A stretch of DNA of 64,000 bases, taken from contig CAZUAT010000007.1 of NCBI GenBank assembly GCA_964618415.1, positions 929-64,928 of the forward strand. Direction: 5' to 3'. A model generated the notes under the pieces. The model had not been told where the DNA came from. It did no database searches and worked only from the letters and a program-made list of their open reading frames with translations. This document shows positions 7,000 through 41,758 of the stretch, one piece after another. Origin of the DNA: an uncultured Thermoanaerobaculia bacterium. GTDB taxonomy: Bacteria; Acidobacteriota; Thermoanaerobaculia; Multivoradales; JAGPDF01. The stretch's first letter is position 1; each line of letters starts with the position of its first letter. The position numbers and the translations under genes are program-made.

Positions 7000-7025
7000 G
7001 CTTCATGGTCGAGGGATGCGCGGTC

Positions 7026-28514: not shown

Positions 28515-29722
28515 GCGAGTCGCACCTGGCCGGGGCGCCGGGCGGCCCGATCCGTTTCGAAGTCCTCGGTCGGGACGGCGCGGCACGCCGGGGCCGTCTG
28601 CACACGAGGCACGGCGCGATCGAAACGCCGGCGTTCATGCCGGTCGGCACCCAGGGAGCCGTCAAGGGGCTGACTCCGCAGGCGCTCGAAGAGGTCGGGG
28701 CCGAGGTGATGCTGGCCAACCTCTACCATCTCAGTCTGCGCCCCGGCATCGATGCAATCGAACGCGTCGGCGGCGTGCACGCGTTCGCGGGTTGGAAACG
28801 ACCGATCCTGACCGACTCGGGCGGCTTCCAGGTATTCAGCCTGGAGGGGATGCGCAGCGTCGACGAGGCGGGCGTCACCTTTCGCAGCCACCTCGACGGC
28901 GCTGCGCTGCGCTTCACGCCTGCCGGAGTCGTCGAGGCCCAGGAGCGGATCGGAGTCGACATCGCGATGATGCTCGACGAGTGTCCGCCGTGGCCGGTGG
29001 ACGAAGCGCGAGCCCGGTCGGCCTGGGAGCGCACGCGCCGGTGGGCGGAGCGGGCTCTGGCGGCGCGCCGGCGCCCGACCGAGACGGCGCTGTTCGCCAT
29101 CGCGCAGGGCAGCAGCTTTCGCGCTCTGCGCGAGCAGGCCGCGCGCGAGCTCGCGCAGCTGCCGTTCGACGGCGTCGCGATCGGCGGGGTGTCGGTGGGC
29201 GAGCCGGAGGCCGAGCGGCGGGCGGTCGTCGAGTGGACGGCGGCGCTGCTGCCCGAGGACCGGCCGCGGTACCTGATGGGGGTCGGGACGCCCGCCGACC
29301 TCGCCCACGCGGTGGCGCACGGGGTCGACCTGTTCGACTGCGTGCTGCCGGCCCGCAACGGTCGCCACGGCCTGCTCTACACCCGCTCCGGCCTGCTGCG
29401 CATCCGCAACTCGGCTTTTCGCGACGATCCGCGGCCCCTCGATCCGGAGTGCCGCTGCGCGGTCTGCGCGCGGGTCCCGCGCGCCCTCCTGCACCATCTG
29501 ATGCGGGCCGGCGAGATCACCGGGGCGGTGTTCGCGACGGTGCACAACCTGCGTTACTTCCTTGACTTCATGGCGGATCTTCGACAGGCTATCGAGTCTT
29601 GTCAGCTGGAAACACGCCTCCGCTCCGGGGGCGGAGGTCCAGTCGACGGAAACCGTACCGAGAGCCCCGACTCGCCGTCGTCCGGTTCCGCCGGGTTTGT
29701 CCGGTCGGTCCCCCGATCCTGA
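28511..29722 (+). CDS. tgt: Queuine tRNA-ribosyltransferase
   Basis: TPAFMPVGTQG, NLYHL, ILTDSGGFQVFSL, AIGGVSVGE, PRYLMGVG, DLFDCVLPARNGRHG, zinc CRCAVC...HN. Confidence 0.97.
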   Translation: MSESHLAGAPGGPIRFEVLGRDGAARRGRLHTRHGAIETPAFMPVGTQGAVKGLTPQALEEVGAEVMLANLYHLSLRPGIDAIERVGGVHAFAGWKRPILTDSGGFQVFSLEGMRSVDEAGVTFRSHLDGAALRFTPAGVVEAQERIGVDIAMMLDECPPWPVDEARARSAWERTRRWAERALAARRRPTETALFAIAQGSSFRALREQAARELAQLPFDGVAIGGVSVGEPEAERRAVVEWTAALLPEDRPRYLMGVGTPADLAHAVAHGVDLFDCVLPARNGRHGLLYTRSGLLRIRNSAFRDDPRPLDPECRCAVCARVPRALLHHLMRAGEITGAVFATVHNLRYFLDFMADLRQAIESCQLETRLRSGGGGPVDGNRTESPDSPSSGSAGFVRSVPRS

Positions 29723-29829
29723 TTTCGGCTTACCTGCCGACCCGGACATCGGAGGAACCACGGAGGATCCGCGCAGGAGGCGCTGCGCGACGCAGCCGGG
29801 TTCGCGGATCTCGTGACCGGAGGCGATCC

Positions 29830-30156
29830 ATGCCGTTCTTCCTACTCCAGGCGTCCGCGCCGGGTTCGGCGCCGTCGGCGCTGGTCCAGCTGGTCCCGGT
29901 GCTGCTGATCTTCGGGATCTTCTACTTCCTGCTGCTGGCGCCGATGCGCAAGCGCCAGAAGGCCCACCAGGCGATGCTCGGCCAGCTCAAGCGGGGCGAC
30001 AAGGTGGTGACCAACGGCGGATTGCTCGGCGAGATCGCGGCGGTCGAAGACAAGGTCGTCCATCTCAAGCTGGCCGACAACGTCCGCGTGCGGGTGGCCA
30101 AGTCGGCGGTCGCCGGCATCGAGGGCGAGCCCGGCAGCGAAGGGGGCAAGGGATGA
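29830..30156 (+). CDS. yajC: Preprotein translocase subunit YajC
   Basis: IFYFLLLAPMRKRQK, LKRGDKVVTNGGLLGEI; tgt-yajC-secD-secF synteny. Confidence 0.95.
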   Translation: MPFFLLQASAPGSAPSALVQLVPVLLIFGIFYFLLLAPMRKRQKAHQAMLGQLKRGDKVVTNGGLLGEIAAVEDKVVHLKLADNVRVRVAKSAVAGIEGEPGSEGGKG

Positions 30157-31736
30157 ACCGCAGCATTCTCTGGCGGGGAGTGCTGATTTTCGGCCTCGCC
30201 GGGCTGGCCATCTGGGCCGCCTATCCGCCCCAGAAGAAGATCAATCTCGGCCTCGACCTGCAGGGCGGCATCCACCTCGAGCTCCAGGTGCGCACCCAGG
30301 ACGCGGTGCGGGCGGAGACCGACCGCGACATGGAGATTCTGCGTCGGGAAGCGACCGGCGCCGGAATCGTCGGCCTTTCGACGAACCGGCTCACCGACAC
30401 CCGCTTCGAAGTCACCGGGCTCGCCGAGTCCGACCAGAGCCGCTTCGACGAGGTGACGCGCAAGTGGCTGGGCAACGCCTGGAACGCGGAGAAGGGCGTC
30501 GGCGGACGGGTGGTGTTCAACATGGCGCCGGCCAACGAGCGCGCCATCCGCGACCTGTCGGTCAATCAGGCGCAGCAGACCATCCGCAACCGTATCGACC
30601 AGTTCGGCGTCGCCGAACCGGTCATCGCGCGCCAGGGCGCCACCAGCGACCGCATCGTCGTTCAACTCCCGGGCGTGGACGATCCGGAGCGCGTGAAGCG
30701 ACTGATCAAGAACACGGCGTTTCTCGAGTTCCGGCTCTGCGACTTTCCGTGGACGGGAGCCGGCGCTGGATCACGCGACGACATCCTCGCCCACTACGGC
30801 GGGCGCCTGCCGGACAACATCGAGATCCTGCCCGAGGTACGGCGCGACTCGTCGACCGGCCAGGTGCTCTCGCAGGCTTTCTGGGCGGTCGAGAAGCGGC
30901 AGGTGATCACCGGCCGCGACCTCAAGCACGCCAGCCCCTCGCAGGGACAGTTCGGGCAGCCGGTCGTCTCGTTCAACCTGAACGTGGACGGCGCGCGGGC
31001 GTTCGGCGAGGCCACCGGCGCGAACATCGGCCGCGGTCTGGCAATCGTGCTCGACGGAACGATCGTCTCGGCGCCGCAGATCAACGGTCGGATCACCGAT
31101 TCGGGCGTCATCGAGGGCAACTTCACGCAGCAGGAGGTGCAGGACCTCGTCACCACGCTGCGCTCCGGCGCGCTGCCGGCGGGCATCGACTACGTCGAGG
31201 ACAGGACGGTCGGCCCGTCGCTCGGACAGGATTCGATCGATTCGAGCATCAAGGCGGGTTTGCTGTCGATGATCTGCATCGTGCTGTCGCTGCTGATCGT
31301 GTACCGGCTGTCCGGCCTCAACGCTCTGTTCGGTCTGGCGCTCAACGTGCTGCTGCTGTTCGGAGCACTGGCCTATTTCGACGCCACGCTTACGCTGCCC
31401 GGCACCGCCGGCATCGTGCTGTCCATCGCCATGGCGGTGGACGCCAACGTGCTGATCTTCGAGCGGATCAAGGAGGAGCTGCGAGCCGGCAAGACGCTCC
31501 GGTCAGCGATCGATGCCGGGTTCCAGAATGCGCTGTCGTCGATCCTCGACTCCAACATCACGACGCTGATCGCGGCCCTTTTCCTGTTCCAGTTCGGCAC
31601 CGGACCGATTCGCGGCTTCGCGGTCACGCTCTCAATCGGCATCCTCGGCACGCTCTTCTGCGCGATCTACGTCAGCCGCTGGCTCTTCGAGGTGACGCAG
31701 ACCCTGCGCCCGAACGCCGGGAAACTTTCCATCTGA
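30153..31736 (+). CDS. secD: Protein translocase subunit SecD
   Basis: LGLDLQGG, IRNRIDQFGVAEP, IVVQLPG, AIVLDG, LRSGALP, VGPSLG, LTLPG.AG, AVDANVLIFERIKEE. Confidence 0.97.
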   Translation: MNRSILWRGVLIFGLAGLAIWAAYPPQKKINLGLDLQGGIHLELQVRTQDAVRAETDRDMEILRREATGAGIVGLSTNRLTDTRFEVTGLAESDQSRFDEVTRKWLGNAWNAEKGVGGRVVFNMAPANERAIRDLSVNQAQQTIRNRIDQFGVAEPVIARQGATSDRIVVQLPGVDDPERVKRLIKNTAFLEFRLCDFPWTGAGAGSRDDILAHYGGRLPDNIEILPEVRRDSSTGQVLSQAFWAVEKRQVITGRDLKHASPSQGQFGQPVVSFNLNVDGARAFGEATGANIGRGLAIVLDGTIVSAPQINGRITDSGVIEGNFTQQEVQDLVTTLRSGALPAGIDYVEDRTVGPSLGQDSIDSSIKAGLLSMICIVLSLLIVYRLSGLNALFGLALNVLLLFGALAYFDATLTLPGTAGIVLSIAMAVDANVLIFERIKEELRAGKTLRSAIDAGFQNALSSILDSNITTLIAALFLFQFGTGPIRGFAVTLSIGILGTLFCAIYVSRWLFEVTQTLRPNAGKLSI

Positions 31737-31767
31737 CGGGCGCCAGGCGACCCGGGGAGCCCTATCG

Positions 31768-32973
31768 ATGGACATTCTGACCAACACCAAGATCGACTTC
31801 ATGAAGTATCGCCGCTTCTGGCTGGCCTTCTCCTTCGTGGTGATGGCAATCGGCGCGGTGGCGATCTTCTTCCTCGGTCACCTCAACATGGGCATCGATT
31901 TCGCCGGCGGAACGCAGCTGACGCTGAAGTTTGCCGAGCGGCCGGATGTCGAGCAGCTGCGCTCCGTGGTGACCGGCGCTGGCGTGGGCGACGCGCAGCT
32001 CCAGCGGTTCGGGGATCCGGCGAGCAACGAGGTGATCATCGGCACGCCGATCCTCGAGGGCAAACCGGAGGGCAGCGCCGCGGAGGTCCTGGCCGCGATC
32101 GACGCGCGGTACAACGCCGGGGCCGACAGCCGGTCGGACATCAACCGGATCGGCACGCTGTCACTGGCCGACCTGCTGGCCGCGACGGATCCCGACGGCG
32201 TCGGACCCGAGAGCGCAGCCGGGCACTACACGGGAGTGGCCGAGTCGGTGATGGCCGAGCGCAAGCGGCTCGGTATCTTCGTCTCCTGGGACGAAGTGGC
32301 GCGAGCGGCGGGACTCTCTCCGCGGGCCCTGGAGGCCATCAAGGCTCAGGGCAGGATCGGCAGCTACTCGGTGCTCGGCAGCGGCAACGTGAGCCCGCAG
32401 GTCGGATCGGAGATCCGTCAGCGCGGCATCCTCGCGGTAGTCGGCGCGATCCTGGGCATGCTGCTCTACATCTGGATCCGGTTCGAGCTTCGGTTCGGGA
32501 TCGGCGCGACGATGTCGATTCTGCACGACGTGCTCATCACCCTCGGCATCTATGCCTTCATGGGTTACGAATTCAACCTCACCACGGTCGCCGCGTTCCT
32601 GACGTTGATCGGCTACTCGGTGAACGACACGGTCGTCACCTTCGACCGCGTCCGCGAGAACATGCGCAAGACCCGCGGCGGCGACCTGCTGACGCTGATC
32701 AACCGCAGTCTCAACGAAATGCTGGCCCGGACCCTGTTGACCGGCGGCACGACGGTCCTCGCCGCGCTGATGCTCTGGCTGTTCGGTGGGGAGGCAATTC
32801 GCGGCTTCGCCTTCATCATTCTGGTCGGCATCATCGTCGGCACCTATTCGTCGATCTACATCGCCAGCCCGTTCGCGATCCTCTGGGAGGAGTGGTTCGG
32901 GCCCGGCGGGCGCTTCCATCGCGACAAGGGCAAGCCGCAGCGCGCGGGTGCGGCTCCGGCTGCCTCCCGCTGA
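31768..32973 (+). CDS. secF: Protein translocase subunit SecF with an extra periplasmic HhH-like insertion
   Basis: GIDFAGGT, VSPQVG, IRFE, HDVLIT, IGYSVNDTVVTFDRVREN, RTLLT, GTYSSIYIA; ~70-aa insertion at about 32137-32352. Confidence 0.95.
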   Translation: MDILTNTKIDFMKYRRFWLAFSFVVMAIGAVAIFFLGHLNMGIDFAGGTQLTLKFAERPDVEQLRSVVTGAGVGDAQLQRFGDPASNEVIIGTPILEGKPEGSAAEVLAAIDARYNAGADSRSDINRIGTLSLADLLAATDPDGVGPESAAGHYTGVAESVMAERKRLGIFVSWDEVARAAGLSPRALEAIKAQGRIGSYSVLGSGNVSPQVGSEIRQRGILAVVGAILGMLLYIWIRFELRFGIGATMSILHDVLITLGIYAFMGYEFNLTTVAAFLTLIGYSVNDTVVTFDRVRENMRKTRGGDLLTLINRSLNEMLARTLLTGGTTVLAALMLWLFGGEAIRGFAFIILVGIIVGTYSSIYIASPFAILWEEWFGPGGRFHRDKGKPQRAGAAPAASR

Positions 32974-33022
32974 ACATCCGTAGAATCGTCACCGGTGGCA
33001 GCTGCCTGTCCGGGCGCCGCCG

Positions 33023-35266
33023 GTGACACCGATGACCGACCACAAACGCCAGCCCGCGCCACCCGTTACGCCGCCGCGCCCGCCAGGGCTCGAGGAGCTG
33101 GCCGTCCATCTGGAGCGCAACGGGCGCGCAGTCGACCGCGTCCTGCTCGCCCGGGCCTGGGGGTTCTCGGCGGAGATGCACCGCGACCAGGTGCGCCGCT
33201 CCGGTGAGCCGTACCTGACGCACCCGGCGAGCGTCGCCTGGCTGCTGGCCGATCTGCGGCTCGACCTGACGAGCGTCGTCGTGGCGCTGCTCCACGACGT
33301 GCTCGAGGACACGCTGACCACGCGTGAGCGCCTGGAGCGCGAGTTCGGCAGCGAGATCGCCGAGCTCGTCGACGGCGTGACCAAGATCGGCCGGCACATG
33401 TACGTTCGCAAGGACGACGCCCAGGCCGAGACCTTCCGCAAGATGATCCTCGCGTCGGCACGGGACATCCGGGTGATCCTCGTCAAGCTGGCCGACCGGC
33501 TGCACAACATGATGACCCTCGGGTCGATGTCACCCGAGGCGCGGCGGCGGATCTCGCAGGAGACTCTCGAGATCTACGCCCCGATCGCCAACCGTCTCGG
33601 CATGGCCAAGGTCAAGGGCGATCTCGAGGACCTGGCGTTCTTCTACCTCTGGCCCCTGCAGTTCGCGGCGCTGCAGCAGGCCGTCAACGAGAAGGTCCGG
33701 GTCGGCAAGGCGGCGACCCGCCAGATCGCTGAACGGCTTGCCGCCAGTCTCGCCGAGGCCGGTGTCGAGTGCGAGATCAGCCATCGCGTGAAGCGCTTCT
33801 ACTCGATCTTCCAGAAGCTGCGGCGGCAGGAGATCGAGGTCTCCGAGCTCTACGACTACCTCGCCTTCCGCATCGTCACTCCGGAGCTGCGCGACTGCTA
33901 TACCGCGCTCGGGGTGGTCCACCAGAACTGGCGCCCGATTCCGGGCCGGTTCAAGGACTACATCGCGATGCCGAAGCCGAACCTCTATCAGTCCCTGCAC
34001 ACCACGCTGCTGGGCCCCGCGGGACAGCCGTTCGAAGTGCAGATCCGGACCCGCGAGATGGATCTGGTGGCCGAGGAGGGCATCGCCGCGCACTGGCGCT
34101 ACAAGGAGGGCAAGGCGGAGAACGCTTCGATCGACCGCAATGTCCTCTGGCTGCGGCAGCTGGTCGACGAGCACATCGAGGGCGAGGACTCACGCACCTT
34201 CCTGTCGACGCTCAAGGTCGACCTCTACCCGGACGAGGTCTACGCCTTCTCGCCGAAGGGCGACGTCTTCGCACTGCCCCGCGGAGCCACGCCGCTCGAT
34301 TTCGCATACCGGATTCACACCGATATCGGACATCACTGCGCGGGCGCGCGCGTCAACGGGCGGCTGGTGCCGCTGCGCACGGCGCTGCGCACCGGGGACG
34401 TGGTCGAGGTGCTGACCCATGCCTCCCGGCACCCGAGCCGCGACTGGCTCTCCTGGGTGGCAACGCCGAAGGCGAAGTCGCGCATCCGGCAGTGGATCAA
34501 CACCCAGCAGACCGCGGAGGCGATCCAGGTCGGGCGGCGCCTGCTCGAGAAGGAGCTGCAGCGGCTGCGCACCGCGCCGCGCGCCGTCTACGAGGGCGAG
34601 ACGTTCCGCGGGCTGCTGGTCGACGAGGGGCTGGCTCGCCCGGAGGATCTGCTGGCCCGCATCGGGTACGGAAAGATGTCGGTCCATCAGGTGCTGGAAC
34701 GCGTCCTGACGCGCGAGCAGCTGGACCGCGAGCCGGTGGTCCCGGGGCGGCTCCGGCAGGCCTTCGAGCGGCTGGTGCCGCGGCGGGGCGGCGCCGGCCC
34801 GATCCAGGTGCGCGGTCAGGGTGATCTGATGGTCGTGCTCGCCAAGTGCTGCCGCCCGCTGCCCGGCGAGGAGATCGTCGGCTACGTGACCCGAGGCCGC
34901 GGCGTCTCGGTGCACTCGGTCAGCTGCCCGAACGTGCGCAACCTGCTCTACAACCCCGAGCGCGAGATCGAGGTGGCGTGGGCGAGCGGCGAGGATGGCC
35001 TCTATCCCGTCTCGCTGCTCATCCGCACGGAGGACCGGCGAGGGATGCTGGCCAAGCTGACCGAGGCGATCGCCAAGCTCGACACCAACATCCGTCAGAT
35101 CGAGGCCGACACCGAGAACCCGGGGCGCGGCCACATCGAGGTGGTGCTCGACGTGCGCGACAGTGCCCATCTGGAGAGGGTGCGCCGCGCTCTGCGCGGC
35201 CAGCCCGGCGTGCTCGATGTCAGCCGGCGCATGCCCGGCGCCGCGCGGAGCGACGACCTGGGCTGA
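33023..35266 (+). CDS. relA: Bifunctional (p)ppGpp synthetase/hydrolase (long RSH)
   Basis: HRDQVRRSGEPYLTHP, intact LLHDVLED, VKLADRLHNM, FKDYIAMPKPNLYQSLHT, TGS domain, KCCRPLPG, C-terminal ACT. Start GTG 33023 or ATG 33032. Confidence 0.96.
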   Translation: MTPMTDHKRQPAPPVTPPRPPGLEELAVHLERNGRAVDRVLLARAWGFSAEMHRDQVRRSGEPYLTHPASVAWLLADLRLDLTSVVVALLHDVLEDTLTTRERLEREFGSEIAELVDGVTKIGRHMYVRKDDAQAETFRKMILASARDIRVILVKLADRLHNMMTLGSMSPEARRRISQETLEIYAPIANRLGMAKVKGDLEDLAFFYLWPLQFAALQQAVNEKVRVGKAATRQIAERLAASLAEAGVECEISHRVKRFYSIFQKLRRQEIEVSELYDYLAFRIVTPELRDCYTALGVVHQNWRPIPGRFKDYIAMPKPNLYQSLHTTLLGPAGQPFEVQIRTREMDLVAEEGIAAHWRYKEGKAENASIDRNVLWLRQLVDEHIEGEDSRTFLSTLKVDLYPDEVYAFSPKGDVFALPRGATPLDFAYRIHTDIGHHCAGARVNGRLVPLRTALRTGDVVEVLTHASRHPSRDWLSWVATPKAKSRIRQWINTQQTAEAIQVGRRLLEKELQRLRTAPRAVYEGETFRGLLVDEGLARPEDLLARIGYGKMSVHQVLERVLTREQLDREPVVPGRLRQAFERLVPRRGGAGPIQVRGQGDLMVVLAKCCRPLPGEEIVGYVTRGRGVSVHSVSCPNVRNLLYNPEREIEVAWASGEDGLYPVSLLIRTEDRRGMLAKLTEAIAKLDTNIRQIEADTENPGRGHIEVVLDVRDSAHLERVRRALRGQPGVLDVSRRMPGAARSDDLG

Positions 35267-35293
35267 GGACCGGCGGCGCGGCCGCGACGCCGC

Positions 35294-35524
35294 TTACTTG
35301 CCGGTGGGGGTTTCGGCGGGGGTCCAGGTGCGGACCGGCGGGCGTGCGACCTTGCCGCTGCGCAGGCAACGCGCGCAGACGCGCACCCGCTTGACGGTGC
35401 CGTCGATCAGCGCCTTGACGGAGCGCAGGTTCGGCTCCCAGGTCCGCGAGGTCACGTTGTGCGCGTGGCTGACCTTGCGTCCGGTGACGGTGGACTTGCC
35501 GCAGACTTCACACTGCTTCGCCAT
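35294..35524 (-). CDS. rpmB: 50S ribosomal protein L28
   Basis: MAKQCEVCGK..VTGRKVSHAHN.TSRTWEPNL ... VCARCLRSGKV. Confidence 0.97.
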   Translation of the reverse strand: MAKQCEVCGKSTVTGRKVSHAHNVTSRTWEPNLRSVKALIDGTVKRVRVCARCLRSGKVARPPVRTWTPAETPTGK

Positions 35525-35596
35525 GATGCAACTCCGAAAGACTCGCAGGGAACCGGTGGTGGATCCTCGGCTTCGCCCGGGCGGGCGAACCGGCCG

Positions 35597-35626
35597 ATTC
35601 TAGCCTTGCTTCCCCCAGGCCCGCAA
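35597..35626 (-). promoter_or_regulatory. Sigma70-type promoter for rpmB
   Basis: TTGCGG, N18, TAGAAT on the minus strand. Confidence 0.55.
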
Positions 35627-35701
35627 CCCGGCCTCGGAGGGGGTCCGAATCGGGGCTGTGCAATACTGCACAAGGATTTGGGCAGCATTTTCGGCAACCC
35701 C

Positions 35702-35730
35702 TTGACAGGCCTTGGGGTTGCTGGTACCTT
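35702..35730 (+). promoter_or_regulatory. Sigma70-type promoter for the pilM operon
   Basis: TTGACA (35702-35707), N17, TACCTT (35725-35730). Confidence 0.75.
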
Positions 35731-35795
35731 GCTGACACGAATCGCTAGTAAGAAGTGCGGTCGGCGAGCTCGCTGGAGAGGGGGTAGATCGCATC

Positions 35796-36851
35796 GTGCT
35801 GTTCTCGCGCTCGAAGGGTCTGGTTGGACTCGATATCGGCAGTTCGGCGCTCAAACTGGTCGAGCTCCACGAGAAGAAGGGCGAGTATTGGCTCCAGCGC
35901 CTGGGGGTCGAGCCCCTGTCGCCGGAGGCGATCGTCGACGGCTCGATCATGGACTCCGCGCTCGTGGTCGATGCCCTGAACCGGCTGATCGCCGCGACCG
36001 GGGTCAAGACCCCGAGTTTCGCCACCTCGCTGTCCGGTCACTCCGTCATCATCAAGAAGATCCAGGTGCCGGCGATGGCCTCGGAGGATCTCTCGGAGCA
36101 GATCCGGTGGGAGGCCGAGCAGTACATCCCGTTCGACATCAATGACGTCCGTCTCGACTACATCGTCCTCTCGGAGGGCGAGCCGGGTCGCGACAACATG
36201 GACGTGCTGCTGGTCGCCGTCAAGCGGGACAAGGTCAACGACTACGTCTCGGTGATCGGCCAGGCCGGCCGCGTCGCGACCCTGGTGGACGTCGACGCGT
36301 TCGCGATCCAGAACGCCTACGAGGTCAACTACGACCTCGATCACTCGAAGGTCGTGGCGCTGGTCAACATGGGCGCCAGCGTGACCAACATCAACATTCT
36401 CGTGCGCGGCCAGACCGCGTTCTGGCGCGACATCTCCTCGGCGGGCAACGGCTTCACGGAGGCGCTGCAGCGTGAGTTCAACCTGTCGTTCGAGCAGGCC
36501 GAGCGCCTCAAGCGCGGTCAGCCGGTCGACCGGTTCCAGCCCTCCGACGCCCGTGCGGTGCTCGATGGCGTGTCGGGCGAGCTCGCGACCGAGATCCAGA
36601 AGACTTTCGACTTCTTCGCCGCGACCTCCTCGGAGGGACCGGTCGACGAGATCGTGCTGTCGGGCGGCTGCGCGCTGACCCCGAACCTGCAGCAGGTGCT
36701 GCGCGAGCGGTTCGGAGTGCCGATCGAAGTGTTGGATCCGCTGCGCCGGATCCACTACCGCGACGGCGACTTCGACCGCGACTGGCTGCGCTCGATCTCG
36801 CCGATGCTGGCGGTTGCGGTGGGGCTGGCTGTCCGGAAGGCGGGAGGCTGA
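35796..36851 (+). CDS. pilM: Type IV pilus assembly protein PilM
   Basis: LVGLDIGSSALKLVEL, VIIKKI, EAEQYIPFDIN.V.LDY, VLLVAVK, DVDAFA, LVNMGAS, IVLSGGCA. Confidence 0.95.
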   Translation: MLFSRSKGLVGLDIGSSALKLVELHEKKGEYWLQRLGVEPLSPEAIVDGSIMDSALVVDALNRLIAATGVKTPSFATSLSGHSVIIKKIQVPAMASEDLSEQIRWEAEQYIPFDINDVRLDYIVLSEGEPGRDNMDVLLVAVKRDKVNDYVSVIGQAGRVATLVDVDAFAIQNAYEVNYDLDHSKVVALVNMGASVTNINILVRGQTAFWRDISSAGNGFTEALQREFNLSFEQAERLKRGQPVDRFQPSDARAVLDGVSGELATEIQKTFDFFAATSSEGPVDEIVLSGGCALTPNLQQVLRERFGVPIEVLDPLRRIHYRDGDFDRDWLRSISPMLAVAVGLAVRKAGG

Positions 36852-36855
36852 GCTC

Positions 36856-37491
36856 ATGCTCAAGATCAATCTGCTCGCCGAGGGAAAGCGCCCGGTCGTC
36901 GCTCGCAAGAAGGCGGCGACTTCGGGCGGCGGCGCCGGTAGCAGCGGCGACCTCGGGAACTACCTGCTCATTGCTGGGATCGTGCTCGGCCTGTTGGTGA
37001 CGGCCGGCTGGTGGCTGATGCTCAGCAACCGGATCTCTAACAAGCAGGAACAGATCGCGGAAGCGAAGCGCGAGGTCGAGGAGCTCAAGGCCGTCATCAA
37101 GGAGGTCGAGGAGTACAAGCGCAAGAAGGCCGACCTCGAGCGCAAGATTCAGATCATCAACGATCTGAAGGCCAATCAGCGCGGTCCCGTCCAGATCATG
37201 GACGAGGTCTCCAAGGGCCTGCCGGAGCTGCTGTGGCTGACCAGCCTCGAGACCACCAACACGAACGTGAGCCTGCGCGGATCGGCGTTCAACATGTCGG
37301 CCGTGGCCAACCTGATCGACAACCTCGACCGGGTGGAGGCTTTCGGCGAGCCGATTCTCCAGGACGCCACGCAGCGAGCGGGCCGTGGTGCGCGGACCGA
37401 GGTCTACGACTTCCGGCTCTCCTTCCCGTACTCATTCAAGGCGCCTGCGGCGGCGCCGGCCGACGGGGCCGGCGCTCCGGCGGCGCGCTGA
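36856..37491 (+). CDS. pilN: Type IV pilus assembly protein PilN
   Basis: MLKINLL, transmembrane helix, coiled coil, LPELLWLTSL; operon position. Confidence 0.92.
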   Translation: MLKINLLAEGKRPVVARKKAATSGGGAGSSGDLGNYLLIAGIVLGLLVTAGWWLMLSNRISNKQEQIAEAKREVEELKAVIKEVEEYKRKKADLERKIQIINDLKANQRGPVQIMDEVSKGLPELLWLTSLETTNTNVSLRGSAFNMSAVANLIDNLDRVEAFGEPILQDATQRAGRGARTEVYDFRLSFPYSFKAPAAAPADGAGAPAAR

Positions 37492-37504
37492 TCGGAGACC
37501 GACG

Positions 37505-38122
37505 ATGGCATTTCAGACCGGACTCGAAGGCAAGCCCGCCTGGCAAGGCGGCCTGGTCGGCCTGCTCGTCGCGGCGCTCCTGGTCGGCGGTACGTACTGG
37601 CTGAAGTTCAAGGGACAGTACGAGCAGCTCGAGCGGATGGAGACCGAGTACCAGGGCCTGCAGCAGACGATCGCCGAAGGCCGCGCCGCCAAGGCCAAGC
37701 TCCCGCAGTTCCGCGAGGAGGTTCGCCGACTCGAGCTCGAGCTCGAGAAGCTGCTGCGCATCCTTCCCGCACGGCGCAACACCCCCGAGCTGCTGCGGCG
37801 CATCCGCCAGTTGACCGAACAGGGTAACTTCGACCTTCTCAAGTTCACGCCGGGCAACTTCATCGACCGCGAGTTCTACAGCGAGTGGCCGATTACCGTC
37901 CGCCTGAACGGGACGTACCACAACCTGGCGCTCTTCTTCGACCGCATCGGCCGGTTCTCCCGCATCATCAACATCGAGAACCTCAAGGTCTCGACGCAGG
38001 CGAAGTCCGCCAAGGGGCACTCGATCACCGCCTCGTTCATCGCCAAGACGTTCGTCTACAAGGAGCCGGCTCCCGACGCCGAGCCCCAGACGGCGCCGGC
38101 GGGAGGTAGGGGTAACCGATGA
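37505..38122 (+). CDS. pilO: Type IV pilus assembly protein PilO
   Basis: Transmembrane helix, coiled coil, LLRILP, FYSEWPI...L.GTYHNLA.FFDRIGRFSRIINI. Confidence 0.93.
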   Translation: MAFQTGLEGKPAWQGGLVGLLVAALLVGGTYWLKFKGQYEQLERMETEYQGLQQTIAEGRAAKAKLPQFREEVRRLELELEKLLRILPARRNTPELLRRIRQLTEQGNFDLLKFTPGNFIDREFYSEWPITVRLNGTYHNLALFFDRIGRFSRIINIENLKVSTQAKSAKGHSITASFIAKTFVYKEPAPDAEPQTAPAGGRGNR

Positions 38123-38661
38123 GACCGGACCGATTCTTGAGCCGTATCGCGCTCGCCTTGCTCGCAGGCGCGGTGTTGACGACCGGCGCGGCACGCGCCC
38201 AGGACGACGGCACCGACACCACCGCGCCGGTCGACCCGACCGCGGCGGGTGACGCCGCCATCGTGGACGCCGGAGCCCGGATCGACGAGATCCTCGAGGG
38301 CGAGGAGGCGGTGCTCCAGGGCCAGGCGTACAGCTACGACCCCGGCGACCGTCGCGACCCGTTCCGGTCGCTCGAGACCGCGCAGACGCGGCCGGAGATT
38401 CAGGGCGAGCTGCCGGAGGGCGTACCGGGACTGCTGATCGACGAGGTCGATCTGACCGGCATCTACCGCACCTCGAGCGGTTACATCGCCCAGCTGGTGT
38501 CCCCCAACAAGGATCGCAGCTACCTCGTGCGCGTCGGGGATCAGCTCTACGACGGCGACGTGGTCCGGATCAGTCAGATGGAAGTCGTGTTCAAACAGAT
38601 CGTCAACGACCCGACGGTGCTCAAGCCGTATCGGGAAGTGGTCAAGAAGCTCAGCCCTTAG
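38119..38661 (+). CDS. pilP: Type IV pilus assembly protein PilP
   Basis: YSYDPGDRRDPFRSL, LTGI, YLVRVGDQLYDG.V..I; ATGA overlap with pilO. Confidence 0.85.
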   Translation: MRPDRFLSRIALALLAGAVLTTGAARAQDDGTDTTAPVDPTAAGDAAIVDAGARIDEILEGEEAVLQGQAYSYDPGDRRDPFRSLETAQTRPEIQGELPEGVPGLLIDEVDLTGIYRTSSGYIAQLVSPNKDRSYLVRVGDQLYDGDVVRISQMEVVFKQIVNDPTVLKPYREVVKKLSP

Positions 38662-38667
38662 ACGGGG

Positions 38668-41190
38668 ATGGAGACCGTGCGAGGCGACGCTACGGAGGCG
38701 AGCGAAATGCGTGACGCCGTGATGCGAAGGATGACGAATCGGAACTTCCGGCTGGGAATCGCCATCGCGATAGCGATGCTGATCCCGGGCTGGGGCGGTG
38801 CGTCCGCAGGTGCCGATCCCGAGGCGGCCGTGTCGGCCGACTCTCCAGTCGCGACCATCTCGAAGCTGGAGGTCGTCGAAACCGCGCTCGGGGCCCAGGT
38901 CCAGATCCAGGCCGACGAGGCTCTGGTTTGGAGGTCGTTCCGGGATGCTGCCGGGCGCCTGGTCGTCGAGTTCCCCAACTCCCGGCCGACCGAAGGCCTC
39001 GCGGCCCAGCCGGGTGCGGGTGGGCTCGTCGCGGCGGTCCACGTCTCCAGTTCGGAGGTCGGGGACCGTCCCGTGACGCGGGTGACGGTCGAAACACGCG
39101 ACGCCAGCGAGCATCGCCTCGATGCCGATGCCAGCGGCGTCCGTATCGACCTGATGCGCAGCGGTGCGATTGCCGCCGCGTCGCCGTCCGCCGAGGCCGA
39201 GCCCTCACCGGACGTCGAGGAGGTGGCCGTTCAGGCGCCCGCGGCTGAGCCGGCCCCGGCCGTCGATCCGGCCCCAACGGCGGTCGCTGCAGCCTCGCCG
39301 ATGCACACGCAGGCGGGAACCGTGGACCACCCGGTGGTCGCTCCACGACCGACCGGCGCCCCGGCGACCCGTCTCGAGGGCATCGTCGAGCTGGCGCCCG
39401 GAGTCGTCCGGATCGCTGGCGACGGCGAGTTCGCCTACTCGACGTTCCGACTGGAGAACCCGGAGCGGTTCGTCATCGACCTCGACGGCGTGTTCAACGC
39501 CAGTGATCGCGGCACCGTCCCGATGGGCGGCGCCGCGGTCGACCGCGTCCGCGTCTCGCAGTTCCGGACCGATCCGGTCCCGGTGTCGCGCGTGGTCTTC
39601 GACCTGTCGGCGACCCAGGTGCCGGCGATCGAACGGACCGGCTCGGGCCTCGTGGTCCGATTCGGCGAGCGGATCGCGGACACTCCGGCGCCCGCTGCGT
39701 ACGAGCCGGTGGCTGCCGTCGCCGCGCCGGTCGAGCCGGAGCCGGAGGAAGAGGTCGTCGCCGTCGCGCCCGCGCCGGTACCGGCCCCGGCCCCGGCGCC
39801 GGTCGCCGTGGCTGCGGCTCCGGCGGCAGCTCCCGCGACGGTCGCCGACTTCGAGGCGGCCGACATGCAGGGTTCGACGACGCTTGGCAGCGCCGGAGCG
39901 CCGGTTCAGGCTCCCCCGACGCTGGCCTCGATCGAGGCCGGGCAGACCCTGACCGGGGCGAAGAAGGAGTACTACGGCGAGCCGATCAGCATGACGCTGC
40001 GCGACGCTGACGTGCGCGAGGTGCTGCGCTCGTTCGCCCGCATCTCCGGCCTCAACGTCGTCATCCAGCCCGGCGTCAAGGGCACGGTGACCGTCGAACT
40101 CGAGCGGGTGCCGTGGGACCAGGCGCTCGATCAGATCCTCAAGATCAACGGCCTCGGCTACGAGCTCGACGGCAACATCATGCGCATCGCCCCAGTCGAC
40201 GTGCTCGAGCAGGAGGCCCGTCGGGCTCAGGCCCTGCAGCAGGCGCAGGCGCTCTCGATTCCGCTGCGCACCGTCGTCAAGCGGCTTTCCTACTCGACCG
40301 CGGGTGAGGTCGCCGGCCTGCTCAGCCAGGGCGGCGCCGGTGGCATCCTGTCGCAGCGCGGCACGGTGATCATCGACGGCCGCACCAACACGCTGGTGAT
40401 CAAGGAGCTGCCGAGCTACATGGACACCGTGCTCGCGGTCATCGACACCCTGGACGTGCCGGAACCCCAGGTGATGATCGAAGCCAAGATCATCGAGACC
40501 ACGAAGCAGTTCAGCCGCTCGCTCGGTATCAGCTGGGGCTTCGATGGCGTGGCCGACGCCGCGCACGGCAACTCGACGACGCTGCAGTTCCCCAACCACG
40601 GCACGGTCGACGGCGGCGTCGGGCTGCTCACCGGCGGCGCCAACGGGTTCATCGACATGACTCTCGGCAACGTGCTCGACACGTTCACGCTCAACGCCCG
40701 CCTCCAGGTGGCCGAGAGCGAGGGCCTGGTGACGGTCCTGTCGGCGCCGAAGATCTCGACACTGAACAACAACGCAGCGTCGATTCAAAGCGGCGTCCAG
40801 CTGCCGATCCAGACGGTGGCCAACAACACGGTCACTGTCCAGTTCGTCAACGCCACGCTGCGGCTCGACGTCACGCCGCATGTGACCGCCGAGGGGACGA
40901 TCCTGATGGACATCAACGTCCAGAAGCGCGAGCCGCAGCTGGCCTTCATCGTCCCCGGCGCGTCGAACGCCCCGATCTCCACCAAGGAAGCACGGACGCG
41001 CGTCATCGTCCGCGACGGTGGGACCACGGTCATCGGCGGCATCTACAAGGTGTCCAACGACAATGGCCAGGATCGCGTTCCCGGCCTGTCCAACGTGCCG
41101 CTGCTCGGGCATCTGTTCAAGAACCGCCGGATGCGGAACGAGAACGACGAGATGCTGATCTTCATCACCCCACGGGTCATCAAGCTCTGA
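38668..41190 (+). CDS. pilQ: Type IV pilus secretin PilQ with two AMIN-like domains
   Basis: Two AMIN-like domains (RLVVEFPN; RFVIDL), Pro/Ala-rich linker, GEPISMTLRDADVREVLR, VPWDQALD, DGRTNTLVI, PQVMIEAKI, SAPKI.T, IGGIYK, PGLSNVPLLGHLFK, EMLIFITPRV. Start could be a later Met. Confidence 0.96.
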   Translation: METVRGDATEASEMRDAVMRRMTNRNFRLGIAIAIAMLIPGWGGASAGADPEAAVSADSPVATISKLEVVETALGAQVQIQADEALVWRSFRDAAGRLVVEFPNSRPTEGLAAQPGAGGLVAAVHVSSSEVGDRPVTRVTVETRDASEHRLDADASGVRIDLMRSGAIAAASPSAEAEPSPDVEEVAVQAPAAEPAPAVDPAPTAVAAASPMHTQAGTVDHPVVAPRPTGAPATRLEGIVELAPGVVRIAGDGEFAYSTFRLENPERFVIDLDGVFNASDRGTVPMGGAAVDRVRVSQFRTDPVPVSRVVFDLSATQVPAIERTGSGLVVRFGERIADTPAPAAYEPVAAVAAPVEPEPEEEVVAVAPAPVPAPAPAPVAVAAAPAAAPATVADFEAADMQGSTTLGSAGAPVQAPPTLASIEAGQTLTGAKKEYYGEPISMTLRDADVREVLRSFARISGLNVVIQPGVKGTVTVELERVPWDQALDQILKINGLGYELDGNIMRIAPVDVLEQEARRAQALQQAQALSIPLRTVVKRLSYSTAGEVAGLLSQGGAGGILSQRGTVIIDGRTNTLVIKELPSYMDTVLAVIDTLDVPEPQVMIEAKIIETTKQFSRSLGISWGFDGVADAAHGNSTTLQFPNHGTVDGGVGLLTGGANGFIDMTLGNVLDTFTLNARLQVAESEGLVTVLSAPKISTLNNNAASIQSGVQLPIQTVANNTVTVQFVNATLRLDVTPHVTAEGTILMDINVQKREPQLAFIVPGASNAPISTKEARTRVIVRDGGTTVIGGIYKVSNDNGQDRVPGLSNVPLLGHLFKNRRMRNENDEMLIFITPRVIKL

Positions 41191-41212: not shown

Positions 41213-41758
41213 ATGAACCGCTTCGTCAAGTTGCTCGCTCTTACGCTCGTCGCTGTGGTCGGACTCGGCTGCGAGAGCCGCACCGACAAGGTGGACGCCG
41301 GAGGCGTCATCCTCTCGGTCACCGACTTCGACGGTCTGCCGATCTCGATCAGTGCCTCGGGTTCGTTCCCGCTCGTTCAGGTGGAAACGATCACGGTCAC
41401 CAACGTCACGCGGAACAATTCACAGCCGACCAGTGACCTGATGAACGTGGAGATCCACAGCTACGAGGTATCGTTTACCCGTGAGGACACGGGGACGCGG
41501 GTCCCGCCGGTGCTGGTCAATCACATCTTCGGCATTGCGCCGGCCAACGGTACCTTCACGCTCGACGGTGGGCCGATCCTGCGTACCGACCAGTTCAACC
41601 ACGCGCCGATCAAGGATCTCATCGACTACGGCCGCGACACGGAGACCAACACGCAGGTCGTCCGGCTCAAGGTCGCGATCCAGTTCTTCGGTCGCACGCT
41701 CAGTGGCGACCCGGTCGCATCCGCGCCCGCATACTTCACACTCGAAGTCTTTCCCTGA
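41213..41758 (+). CDS. Hypothetical beta-rich lipoprotein immediately downstream of pilQ
   Basis: Lipobox VGLG-C; GGAGGAG SD; alternating beta pattern; ends FFGRTLSGDPV...YFTLEVFP. Confidence 0.8.
   Translation: MNRFVKLLALTLVAVVGLGCESRTDKVDAGGVILSVTDFDGLPISISASGSFPLVQVETITVTNVTRNNSQPTSDLMNVEIHSYEVSFTREDTGTRVPPVLVNHIFGIAPANGTFTLDGGPILRTDQFNHAPIKDLIDYGRDTETNTQVVRLKVAIQFFGRTLSGDPVASAPAYFTLEVFP

What the first reader, a model, noticed from the sequence alone, without database searches (positions are those of the whole stretch)
32137..32352. SecF carries a ComEA-like helix-hairpin-helix module in its periplasmic loop
Seen: between the first periplasmic strands and the VSPQVG motif, SecF has about 70 extra residues: DINRIGTLSLADLLAATDPDGVGP...VAESVMAERKRLGIFVSWDEVARAAGLSPRALEAIK. 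By eye this tracks the ComEA/HhH_3 pattern IN.A..EEL..LPGIGP..A..II..R...G.F.S.EDL..V.GIG.K.LE.LK (IN, GVGP, A..VM..R...G.F.S.DE...AGL....LE.IK). Established: ComEA is the periplasmic DNA receptor in natural competence, and SecDF uses proton-motive force to pull substrates. Inference: the fusion could couple PMF-driven head motion to periplasmic nucleic-acid binding (DNA uptake ratchet), or the HhH may be repurposed as a protein-interaction module. pilMNOPQ begins about 2.8 kb downstream.
Basis: partly seen in the sequence, partly recalled or inferred. Interest (0 to 1): 0.75.

Follow-up and report, generated by a model that had tools for sequence, protein, structure and literature searches.

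The report
ComEA-type HhH domain inside SecF
The protein-export subunit SecF of this acidobacterium (class Thermoanaerobaculia) really does carry a conserved, well-folded ComEA-type helix-hairpin-helix domain in its periplasmic loop, but the residues ComEA uses to hold DNA are missing, so it is more likely a second protein-contact "head" on the SecDF motor than a DNA receptor.

Summary
SecF (window 31768-32973, 401 aa) has a 79-residue insertion (aa 119-197, nt 32122-32358) that solved SecDF structures lack. It is a divergent ComEA-type HHH_3 double helix-hairpin-helix domain. A profile of the insertion searched against 1.84 billion proteins returned only SecF homologues and ComEA-like HHH_3 proteins. 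hhalign gave 98.7 % probability. The AlphaFold model has pLDDT 96, and its most probable Foldseek match is ComEA.

The insertion sits between helix alpha2 and strand beta4 of the P4 domain. This mirrors the site where the P1 head is spliced into SecD. All 80 best genome relatives carry it; all are Acidobacteriota, mostly Thermoanaerobaculia.

The DNA-uptake interpretation is only weakly supported. The lysine pair essential for ComEA DNA binding is replaced by Glu/Asp plus Ala/Pro/Glu. The first hairpin's Gly-x-Gly is lost in divergent lineages. Helix 2 is 8 residues longer. The second hairpin has Ser/Thr where ComEA has Gly. The pilMNOPQ neighbourhood is dispensable synteny.

My best guess is a non-DNA protein-contact module, a "P4 head". 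This is a new variant of a known kind. I could not test DNA binding or whether these genomes have a separate comEA.

The parts
29830..30156 (+). yajC, the Sec accessory subunit gene upstream of secD
   Evidence: PF02699 YajC, E=3.3e-27. Start codon located.
30153..31736 (+). secD (527 aa). It has a normal P1 head at aa 241-343, spliced immediately before the SecD_SecF_C domain, which starts at aa 347.
   Evidence: PF22599 SecDF_P1_head 1.2e-31, PF21760 SecD_1st, PF02355 and Sec_GG.
31768..32973 (+). secF (401 aa), carrying the insertion
   Evidence: ORF. TIGR00966 scores 290.5 bits (cut-off 160), matched in two stretches split by the insert. PF02355 at 2.5e-64. Foldseek of the full model matches SecDF 5xap, 5xan and 3aqp at E about 1e-13.
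31885..32121 (+). N-terminal part of the P4 periplasmic domain: beta1 (aa 48-55), alpha1 (61-70), beta2 (77-80), beta3 (88-93), alpha2 (104-115)
   Evidence: Secondary structure of the full-length AlphaFold model. Alignment to 5xan residues 438-508.
32122..32358 (+). Inserted HHH_3-type (HhH)2 module, SecF aa 119-197. Its N- and C-termini are paired by a beta-bridge (aa 123-124 with 195-196), as expected for a domain spliced into a loop.
   Evidence: Insert-only model has pLDDT 96.1. In the full model the module has pLDDT 89-94, the highest in the protein. hhalign against HHH_3 gives 98.7 %. 45 of 57 members hit Pfam HHH_3.
32137..32145 (+). D-[LI]-N cap motif (D124, N126 invariant; G129 follows). 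It is equivalent to the 'vNiNtA' start of ComEA HHH_3 domains.
   Evidence: Invariant columns. Aligned to the 'idlN' of HHH_3 by hhalign and comparable to VNINTA / VAINTA of ComEA 8dfk / 8dss.
32155..32271 (+). Remodelled HhH1. Helix aa 130-140; turn [N/D]141-P142-D143-G144-[V/I/L]145; long helix aa 147-168, 8 residues longer than in canonical HHH_3. It contains Y154 and R165-K166.
   Evidence: Helices. Gaps of 5 and 8 residues relative to HHH_3. Column counts. R165 corresponds to the structural R71 of V. cholerae ComEA (PMC3879209).
32209..32214 (+). SecF positions 148-149, the positions of the DNA-contacting lysine pair of ComEA (V. cholerae K62/K63; B. subtilis K164). Here they are Glu-Ser. 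In the family, position 148 is E/D in 69 of 84, and position 149 is A/P/E/Q with R in 5 of 84.
   Evidence: counts. Register G-V-G-P-E-S against ComEA G-V-G-P-S-K. Mutant data from PMC3879209 and PMC9747964.
32287..32349 (+). HhH2. Helix aa 174-178; hairpin G182-[L/V]183-[S/T]184-P; helix aa 185-194. This is the part closest to ComEA in sequence.
   Evidence: Pfam HHH_3 profile positions 26-62 align here. ComEA 8dfk residues 108-147 align here. S/T at position 184 in 84 of 84.
32359..32409 (+). Strand beta4 of P4 and the VSPQVG motif leading into TM2
   Evidence: Strand aa 200-208. The region has 0.73 pairwise identity. SecD_SecF_C starts at aa 205.
32410..32898 (+). SecF TM2-TM6 (SecD_SecF_C core)
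   Evidence: PF02355 covers aa 205-375. Helices aa 210-377.
33023..35266 (+). relA/spoT-type (p)ppGpp synthetase/hydrolase, lying between secF and the pil genes
   Evidence: HD_4, RelA_SpoT, TGS and ACT domains.
35796..41190 (+). pilM-pilN-pilO-pilP-pilQ type IV pilus assembly genes. They are context only and not part of the feature.
   Evidence: PilM_2 1.5e-76, PilN, PilO, a weak PilP match, and Secretin/AMIN. The linkage is present in only 36 of 80 related loci.

Best explanation
Shown: the segment is a genuine, independently folding, divergent ComEA-type (Pfam HHH_3) double helix-hairpin-helix domain of about 79 residues. It is spliced into the alpha2-beta4 loop of the ferredoxin-like P4 periplasmic domain of SecF. 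That loop is the pseudo-symmetry mate of the site where the substrate-binding P1 head is spliced into SecD, so this SecDF has a small second 'head'. The insertion is old. It is kept under purifying selection across the class Thermoanaerobaculia and in some other Acidobacteriota, and in two database SecFs it is duplicated in tandem.

Inferred: the domain has lost the signature ComEA uses to grip DNA. I therefore think it works as a protein-contact module and not as a DNA receptor. It would ride on P4 during the proton-driven rearrangements of the P1-base/P4 sheet. There it would either contact the mobile P1 head or the emerging preprotein, or dock a periplasmic partner such as a chaperone or the outer-membrane insertion machinery. 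Non-DNA HhH modules such as PsbU on photosystem II and GspK in type II secretion act as protein-contact parts of envelope complexes in the same way.
For: Identity and fold:
- 45 of 57 inserts hit PF12836.
- insert model pLDDT 96.1 with a four-helix HhH-loop-HhH topology.
- the most probable Foldseek match is ComEA 8dss (probability 0.90, TM 0.59). Most other hits are HhH DNA enzymes.
- the only non-SecF hits among 1.84e9 proteins are HHH_3 proteins that their sources name ComEA-like.
- the reciprocal HMM search hits SecF ORFs only.
- hhalign 98.7 %.

Insertion site:
- One search gives the order beta1-alpha1-beta2-beta3-alpha2-[module]-beta4.
- One search shows that both the SecD P1 head (ends aa 343) and the SecF module (ends aa 197) stop 4-8 residues before the start of the homologous SecD_SecF_C domain.
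- Review PMC8277102 states that the P1 head is spliced after alpha2, between alpha2 and beta4.

Conservation:
- All 80 best genome loci carry the module.
- D124, N126, G129, L137, P142 and R165 are invariant.
- Pairwise identity is 0.47 in the module, 0.59 in the P4 core and 0.38 in the C-terminal tail.

Against a DNA role, and so for a protein-contact role:
- The K62/K63-equivalent positions are E/D and A/P/E. V. cholerae K63E or K62/63A abolishes DNA binding and transformation, and B. subtilis K164A costs more than 2 logs of transformation.
- The HhH1 Gly-x-Gly is replaced by DPLQLK, DPEKLA or DPEHAA in divergent members, and several members carry net charge -7 to -14.
- The second Gly of HhH2 is Ser/Thr in 84 of 84.
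- Helix 2 is extended by 8 residues.

Precedent for partner docking: periplasmic domains of SecDF are implicated in recruiting SurA (PMC9987972).
Against: - No partner or ligand was identified. The protein-contact role is inferred by elimination and by analogy.
- HHH_3 domains are overwhelmingly DNA binders.
- HhH-DNA contacts are mainly through backbone amides, so loss of the lysines does not prove loss of binding.
- In the window's own clade HhH1 still reads G-V-G-P, exactly as in B. subtilis ComEA.
- Position 192 (K/R in 64 of 84) matches B. subtilis K199, whose mutation also costs more than 2 logs of transformation.
- The tandem duplication in P0163 and P0190 fits avidity for a polymer better than a single fixed docking surface.
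- The Foldseek E-values were not significant (best 0.6).
- No coordinates were available, so I could not examine surface conservation, electrostatics or contacts with the P1 head.
Confidence: 0.5

Rival explanations
1. One reading: the module is a membrane-tethered, ComEA-like periplasmic DNA receptor. SecDF would then hold or ratchet incoming DNA, possibly replacing a free ComEA and cooperating with the nearby type IV pilus machinery.
For: - The module is homologous to ComEA-type HHH_3 domains.
- It is periplasmic and membrane-anchored, as ComEA is in Gram-positives (PMC9747964).
- The window's HhH1 reads GVGP as in B. subtilis ComEA.
- A K/R equivalent to B. subtilis K199 is mostly kept.
- Net charge of -2 equals that of real ComEA DNA-binding domains.
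- pilMNOPQ lies 2.8 kb downstream in the window and in 36 of 80 loci.
- No other HHH_3 ORF occurs in the window or in 1.1 Mb of related loci.
- Tandem duplication of the module in some SecFs would suit binding to a polymer.
Against: - The lysine pair that is indispensable in V. cholerae, and the equivalent most-conserved ComEA residue in B. subtilis, are Glu/Asp and Ala/Pro/Glu here.
- An invariant Asp143 sits in the first hairpin.
- Gly-x-Gly in HhH1 is not conserved across the family, and some members have net charge -7 to -14.
- The second Gly of HhH2 is always Ser/Thr.
- The window insert scores 12.3 bits against TIGR01259 comEA, cut-off 152.
- relA/spoT separates secF from the pil genes. 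Many complete loci lack pil genes nearby yet keep the module.
- The sampled loci are centred on secF, so the absence of comEA in them says little about the whole genomes.
Confidence: 0.2
2. The module is a structural decoration with no ligand of its own. It would be a stably folded insertion that braces or shields P4 and tunes SecDF dynamics or stability, retained because removing it would destabilise the loop.
For: - The conserved residues are mostly the structural core shared with all HHH_3 domains: the D-L-N cap, L137, the R165 equivalent of the structural R71, F171, W174, G182 and L191.
- The exposed segment after hairpin 1 varies in length and sequence.
- Lineage-specific periplasmic insertions are common in SecDF and RND-type porter domains (PMC8277102; the size range of SecDF models).
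Against: - Retention in every one of 80 species-level relatives, down to 37 % SecF identity, suggests a selected function.
- Family-specific conserved features are not part of the general HHH_3 core: the N/D-P-D turn, Y154, K166 and S/T184.
- So does the independent duplication of the module.
Confidence: 0.2
3. The module binds something else in the periplasm, for example a cation at the acidic N/D-P-D-G turn, or a non-DNA polymer such as peptidoglycan or polysaccharide.
For: - A conserved acidic cluster at hairpin 1: N/D141, D143 in 83 of 84, and E/D148 in 69 of 84.
- HhH hairpins are known to bind monovalent cations in DNA polymerases (my own knowledge, not tested here).
- 17 of 57 members also hit the T2SSK (GspK) family model.
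- Tandem duplication occurs in some SecFs.
Against: N-P-D-G is also simply a very favourable tight-turn sequence. No known metal-binding or carbohydrate-binding family matched.
Confidence: 0.1

Closest known systems
ComEA DNA-binding domain (Pfam PF12836 HHH_3; structures 8DSS and 8DFK; V. cholerae ComEA)
   Same: - The same atypical (HhH)2 fold, with no connector helix.
- The same D/N-x-N cap.
- The same 'R-x-x-x-G-x-F' loop and the second hairpin G-h-x.
- Periplasmic location.
- Best sequence and structure match.
   Different: - It is not a free or N-terminally anchored small protein. It is inserted in a loop of SecF.
- HhH1 is remodelled, with 5-residue and 8-residue insertions.
- The DNA-contacting Lys pair is replaced by E/D plus A/P/E.
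- The second Gly of HhH2 is Ser/Thr.
- It fails TIGR01259 (12.3 bits against 152).

SecF / SecDF (TIGR00966; structures 3AQP, 5XAN, 5YHF, 5MG3)
   Same: - Full SecF membership: GG motif and six TM helices.
- A P4 domain with the beta-alpha-beta-beta-alpha-beta order.
- The yajC-secD-secF operon.

   Different: Solved SecFs have a plain P4 with a short alpha2-beta4 loop, 38 residues between the aligned blocks against 117 here. This one carries a folded 79-residue domain in that loop.
P1 head of SecD (PF22599)
   Same: It is spliced into the equivalent alpha2-beta4 loop of the homologous porter-like domain, immediately before the SecD_SecF_C region. So the module is the positional counterpart of the head.
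   Different: The fold is unrelated: the P1 head is not HhH. The module is smaller, and no evidence was obtained here that it moves or binds preprotein.
Non-DNA HhH modules of envelope complexes: PsbU (PF06514) and GspK/T2SSK (PF03934)
   Same: These are HhH-clan domains on the extracytoplasmic side of a membrane complex, used for protein contacts (my own knowledge of these families). T2SSK is the second most frequent Pfam hit, in 17 of 57 inserts.
   Different: The sequence match to HHH_3 is consistently better than to T2SSK. PsbU was not hit by the SecF inserts themselves.

Membership tests
SecF (TIGR00966 / PF02355) | Scores above the curated equivalog cut-off, and has the Sec_GG motif plus the SecD_SecF_C six-TM core | tested here: met
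   TIGR00966 290.5 bits (cut-off 160). PF02355 216.6 bits. PF07549 28 bits. Foldseek to SecDF at E about 1e-13.
SecF (TIGR00966 / PF02355) | Encoded next to secD (and yajC) | tested here: met
   yajC 29830-30156, secD 30153-31736, secF 31768-32973. The same order is found in all 80 related loci.
HHH_3 / (HhH)2 fold family (PF12836) | Significant profile similarity to PF12836 | tested here: met
   - The window alone is sub-threshold (16.6 bits against 27).
- 45 of 57 homologous inserts hit PF12836, best 2.9e-7.
- P0163, a SecF with two modules, passes the gathering score at 39.7 bits.
- hhalign to genuine HHH_3 domains gives 98.7 %, E=2.9e-16.
- The reciprocal HMM hits the window at E=4.9e-7.
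HHH_3 / (HhH)2 fold family (PF12836) | Two helix-hairpin-helix units joined by a loop, without a connector helix | tested here: met
   The AlphaFold model (pLDDT 96) has helices 12-22, 29-50, 56-59 and 67-76 of the module. The most probable Foldseek match is ComEA 8dss_B (probability 0.90, TM 0.59), although no Foldseek E-value is significant.
HHH_3 / (HhH)2 fold family (PF12836) | Gly-hydrophobic-Gly in both hairpins | tested here: inconclusive
   In HhH1 the sequence is G144-[VIL]-[G/A] in 61 of 84 close homologues (GVG in the window), but this is lost in divergent lineages (DPLQLK, DPEKLA). In HhH2 it is G182-[LV]-[S/T] in 84 of 84, never Gly.
ComEA DNA receptor (TIGR01259; functional family) | Scores above the curated comEA model cut-off | tested here: not met
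   TIGR01259 comE scores 12.3 bits, E=0.12, against a cut-off of 152.35.
ComEA DNA receptor (TIGR01259; functional family) | Conserved lysine(s) just after the HhH1 hairpin that contact DNA (V. cholerae K62/K63, B. subtilis K164) | tested here: not met
   SecF position 148 is E/D in 69 of 84. Position 149 is A28, P22, E11, Q7, R5. By profile alignment the lysine falls on V/I157. Importance of the lysines: PMC3879209 and PMC9747964.
ComEA DNA receptor (TIGR01259; functional family) | Small secreted or N-terminally anchored protein, typically linked to competence genes (comEC) | tested here: not met
   The module is internal to SecF. No comEC, comEA or dprA family was matched in the 31 window ORFs scanned (SecD and SecF; 29 others). 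No other HHH_3 ORF was found in the window.
ComEA DNA receptor (TIGR01259; functional family) | Binds double-stranded DNA without sequence specificity | not testable with these tools
   This needs EMSA or anisotropy with the purified module. Net charge is uninformative: -2 here and -2 in the B. subtilis and G. stearothermophilus ComEA domains.
T2SSK / GspK HhH-like domain (PF03934) | Scores above the Pfam gathering threshold | tested here: not met
   The window insert scores 16.4 bits against 24.2. 17 of 57 inserts hit at E<=0.1, always weaker than or comparable to HHH_3.

The most novel reading that the evidence does not exclude
In Thermoanaerobaculia the proton-driven SecDF motor doubles as the periplasmic DNA receptor. 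The HhH module on P4 would bind incoming DNA delivered by the type IV pilus and replace a free ComEA, so that proton-motive-force-driven movements of SecDF help pull DNA into the periplasm. My evidence weakens this reading, because the DNA-contact lysines are lost and hairpin 1 is eroded. It does not exclude it, because DNA binding and the comEA content of these genomes were not tested.
Probability: 0.12. Interest if true: 0.85.

Novelty: new variant of a known kind. Interest (0 to 1): 0.5.

Why it matters
SecDF is a core, well-studied protein-export motor. Its working model rests on a single mobile periplasmic head (P1) next to a plain P4 domain. A whole bacterial class carries a folded extra domain at the mirror-image splice site of P4. 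This gives a natural 'two-headed' SecDF against which to test ideas about how P1/P4 movements are used and how periplasmic partners are recruited.

It is also a clear case of a DNA-binding fold (ComEA-type HhH) recruited into an envelope machine, apparently with loss of its DNA-contact residues.

A full-text search for SecDF together with 'helix-hairpin-helix' found no relevant paper. Automated Pfam annotation already flags HHH_3 in a few of these SecFs, for example P0074.

If the minority DNA-receptor reading were true, it would link protein export and DNA uptake mechanically. That would be a real surprise.

Tried and rejected
- a word-index homologue search with the insert alone found only a fragment identical to part of the query. 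The full-length SecF search was needed.
I used the SecF alignment instead.
- Foldseek of the insert model against PDB gave no significant E-value (best 0.6). I use only the ranking and probability (ComEA at 0.90) as supporting evidence, and rest the homology claim on the profile searches.
- my first HHH_3 HMM scan returned nothing because the output pipe cut hmmsearch short. I repeated it correctly.
- Searches used an out-of-frame yajC. I corrected this. The yajC count is therefore meaningless.
- The argument 'the module is acidic, so it cannot bind DNA' (pI 4.3-6.8 in 105 homologues) is rejected as a test. The DNA-binding domains of B. subtilis and G. stearothermophilus ComEA also have net charge -2. 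Only the extreme members (-7 to -14) are informative.
- The idea that pilMNOPQ adjacency is functional linkage is rejected as evidence. relA/spoT intervenes, the flanking genes are housekeeping (lolA, tgt, accBC, ccm), and pilM is within 8 kb in only 36 of 80 loci.
- my third homologue search used the SecF of the 'Terriglobia' locus L078 and was meant to map where the insertion stops in the phylum. That query could not be made.
- literature searches for SecDF plus HhH and for Thermoanaerobaculia plus competence genes found nothing relevant.
Full report
**1. What is in the sequence**

It lies inside a 401-aa ORF, 31768-32973. This ORF is SecF:
- TIGR00966 scores 290.5 bits against a cut-off of 160.
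- PF02355 SecD_SecF_C covers aa 205-375.
- The Sec_GG motif is at aa 39-55.

It follows yajC (29830-30156) and secD (30153-31736).

Against solved SecDF structures the match splits in two. SecF aa 5-76 align to D. radiodurans SecDF residues 438-508, and aa 193-377 align to residues 546-730. So 117 residues stand where the solved protein has 38. The extra piece is therefore about 79 residues. I place it at aa 119-197 (nt 32122-32358).

**2. Is it a ComEA-like HhH domain?**

On its own the window sequence is only suggestive. PF12836 HHH_3 scores 16.6 bits (cut-off 27, E=0.009), covering only the second half. PF03934 T2SSK scores E=0.012.

The family context settles it.

- A full-length SecF search returned more than 120 homologues of about 400 aa at 57-80 % identity. 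Those with names come from Thermoanaerobaculia or Acidobacteriota MAGs, and all keep the insert.
- I aligned 57 distinct inserts (A2).
  - 45 of the 57 hit HHH_3 individually, best E=2.9e-7.
  - The profile's best PDB sequence matches are ComEA 8dfk (E=0.0068), the HhH region of EEPD1, and ComEA 8dss.
- The same profile, scored against every one of 1.84 billion representative proteins, gave 435 hits at E<=1e-3.
  - Among the best 150, about 50 are SecFs or SecF fragments with the whole module at about aa 120-200.
  - About 100 are multi-repeat proteins that match only the second half of the profile.
  - The eight of these multi-repeat proteins that I sampled match Pfam HHH_3 at E=1e-18 to 1e-103. 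Their sources call them 'competence ComEA-like helix-hairpin-helix protein'.
- In the reverse direction, an HMM built only from those non-SecF HHH_3 domains hit 74 SecF ORFs, including the window's at E=4.9e-7. It hit no other ORF in the window or in 80 related loci.
- hhalign of the two alignments gave 98.7 % probability, E=2.9e-16, across the whole module including the D-L-N start. The template set was recruited by the query profile, so this test is partly circular. The independent Pfam scores of the templates remove most of that concern.
- AlphaFold2 with the insert alignment gave a very confident model (pLDDT 96.1). It has four helices arranged helix-hairpin-helix, loop, helix-hairpin-helix, and paired termini.
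- Foldseek against PDB gave no significant E-value. The highest-probability match was G. stearothermophilus ComEA (8dss_B, probability 0.90, TM 0.59, 77 columns). Most of the other matches were HhH DNA enzymes: Pol beta 8-kDa domain, Pol lambda, TdT, OGG1, MutY and RuvA.

I conclude that the module is a divergent HHH_3 domain.

**3. Where it sits**

The full-length model (84-sequence alignment, mean pLDDT 79.6) gives this order:
- beta1 aa 48-55
- alpha1 aa 61-70
- beta2 aa 77-80
- beta3 aa 88-93
- alpha2 aa 104-115
- the module, with helices at aa 130-140, 147-168, 174-178 and 185-194
- beta4 aa 200-208
- TM2

The module is the most confident part of the model, with pLDDT 89-94. The full model matches SecDF structures at E about 1e-13.

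So the domain is spliced between alpha2 and beta4 of the P4 ferredoxin-like domain. A review of RND-type porter domains states that in SecDF the P1 head is spliced 'after alpha2', 'between alpha2 and beta4', of the first periplasmic domain, and that P4 is normally a plain beta-alpha-beta-beta-alpha-beta unit (PMC8277102).

My own Pfam coordinates agree. The SecD P1 head ends at aa 343, 4 residues before SecD_SecF_C begins. The SecF module ends at aa 197, 8 residues before the same homologous domain begins. The HhH module therefore occupies the pseudo-symmetric counterpart of the P1-head site.

**4. Distribution and selection**

A scan of one genome per species found 589 relatives. All of the best 80, down to 37 % identity, carry the module by my HMM. 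They are labelled as follows:
- mostly Thermoanaerobaculia or Acidobacteriota
- one Holophagales
- one Candidatus Multivoradales
- two 'Terriglobia'

Named members of the more distant clusters are also Acidobacteriota.

Pairwise identity by region:

| Region | Pairwise identity |
|---|---|
| Module | 0.47 |
| P4 core | 0.59 |
| TM2-6 | 0.78 |
| C-terminal tail | 0.38 |

Invariant or nearly invariant residues are D124, L125, N126, G129, L137, P142, D143, Y154, R165, K166, F171, W174, G182 and L191. The domain is thus maintained by selection.

Two database SecFs (P0163, 474 aa; P0190, 478 aa) carry two modules in tandem.

**5. Does it look like a DNA binder?**

I first thought the uniformly acidic-to-neutral charge argued against DNA binding (pI 4.3-6.8 in 105 homologues). 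That argument fails. The DNA-binding domains of B. subtilis and G. stearothermophilus ComEA, read, also have net charge -2, the same as the window's module.

Position-specific evidence is stronger.

- *The lysine pair.*
  - In V. cholerae ComEA, K62/K63 immediately after the HhH1 G-I-G contact DNA. K63A lowers transformation about 250-fold. K63E or K62/63A abolishes transformation, and K62/63A also abolishes DNA binding in vitro (PMC3879209).
  - The window reads G-V-G-P-E-S where B. subtilis reads G-V-G-P-S-K.
  - Across 84 homologues position 148 is Glu/Asp in 69. Position 149 is Ala/Pro/Glu/Gln, with Arg in only 5.
- *Other changes to HhH1.* Asp143 is almost invariant inside the hairpin. 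Helix 2 is extended by 8 residues relative to canonical HHH_3. In divergent lineages the Gly-x-Gly of HhH1 is gone altogether (DPLQLK, DPEKLA, DPEHAA). Some members carry net charge -7 to -14.
- *HhH2.* The second Gly is Ser or Thr in 84 of 84.
- *What is kept.* R165 matches V. cholerae R71, which the authors judged structural. A K/R at position 192, in 64 of 84, matches B. subtilis K199.

The conserved features of the family are therefore the fold and a few family-specific surface residues, not the ComEA DNA-contact set.

**6. Genomic context**

The neighbourhood is, in order:
- lolA, tgt, yajC, secD, secF, relA/spoT, pilMNOPQ
- two small ORFs without family matches
- an Ig-like/PKD protein
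- a TPR protein
- accB, accC
- a phosphoesterase
- ccm genes

This order is conserved in many relatives. However, pilM lies within 8 kb downstream in only 36 of 80 loci, and many loci with 8 kb of downstream sequence lack it while keeping the module. I treat the pil adjacency as synteny, not evidence of function.

No comEA, comEC or dprA family was matched in the 31 window ORFs scanned (SecD and SecF; 29 others), and there is no second HHH_3 ORF in the window. I could not examine whole genomes.

**7. Interpretation**

*Shown.* A conserved, folded, ComEA-type HHH_3 domain is inserted at the alpha2-beta4 loop of SecF P4, in Thermoanaerobaculia and some other Acidobacteriota.

*Inferred.* Because the DNA-contact signature is eroded while the fold and some family-specific residues are kept, the module most likely acts through protein contacts. 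It would be a small 'P4 head' that moves with the P1-base/P4 sheet during the proton-driven cycle. It would touch the P1 head or the preprotein, or dock a periplasmic partner. There is precedent for SecDF periplasmic domains recruiting SurA (PMC9987972), and for HhH-clan domains serving as protein-contact parts of envelope complexes (PsbU and GspK; my own knowledge).

I put this at about 0.5. The rivals are:
- a tethered DNA receptor, about 0.2
- a ligand-free structural decoration, about 0.2
- another ligand such as a cation at the acidic N/D-P-D-G turn, or a non-DNA polymer, about 0.1

The tandem duplication seen in two SecFs fits polymer binding somewhat better than a single docking surface, and it keeps the rivals alive.

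**8. Novelty**

A full-text search for SecDF with 'helix-hairpin-helix' found nothing relevant. Automated annotation already attaches PF12836 to at least one such SecF (P0074). The architecture is therefore visible in databases but, as far as I could find, not described.

I rate it a new variant of a known kind: SecF with a recruited HhH domain. Interest is moderate. It would be high only if the DNA-receptor reading proved true.

**9. Limits**

- No coordinates were available, so I could not map surface conservation or electrostatics, or model the SecD-SecF complex.
- The comEA content of these genomes is unknown.
- DNA binding cannot be tested with these tools.

Noticed in passing
Proteins P0163 (474 aa) and P0190 (478 aa), from the representative search: These SecF homologues carry two HhH modules in tandem in the P4 loop. 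P0163 comes from a low-GC, Lys-rich lineage, and its modules are basic (pI 9.4 and 8.1). It passes Pfam HHH_3 at 39.7 bits. The N-terminus of P0190 resembles the 'Terriglobia' loci L078 and L080.
   Followed up: partly
Window 27732-41190; loci L001-L080: The gene order lolA-tgt-yajC-secD-secF-relA/spoT-pilMNOPQ is conserved in many Thermoanaerobaculia. lolA is present in 62 of 80 loci, tgt in 76, relA in 57 and pilM in 36. A stringent-response gene sits between the Sec accessory operon and the pilus assembly operon.
   Followed up: partly
Window 41213-41758 and 41780-42274 (+): Two small ORFs (181 and 164 aa) directly after pilQ have high GC3 and no Pfam match at E<=1e-4. They are followed by an Ig-like/PKD protein (42355-43392) and a TPR protein (43508-44905). 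They may be uncharacterised pilus-associated components.
   Followed up: no
Protein P0225 (659 aa), from the representative search: This database protein reads as SecF fused to Arg/Pro-rich out-of-frame text and then to a relA/spoT-like sequence. It looks like a frameshifted or mis-called gene on a high-GC contig, not a real fusion.
   Followed up: no
Loci L045, L038, L053, L062 (SecF module): The segment between hairpin 1 and the conserved Tyr varies in length by up to about 12 residues between lineages, and it is often strongly acidic. This is the most plastic part of the module. It may be where lineage-specific specificity lies.
   Followed up: no
Window 7029-8867 (-): A 613-aa ORF with coding-like GC3 (0.84) has no Pfam family at E<=1e-4. 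A long ORF also lies on the opposite strand (7005-8981 +), so which strand codes is unresolved.
   Followed up: no
Window 18134-20308 (+): A glycoside hydrolase family 44 protein (E=1.8e-57) lies next to a mannose-1-phosphate guanylyltransferase-like gene (20411-21463). This suggests polysaccharide metabolism in this organism and is unrelated to the finding.
   Followed up: no
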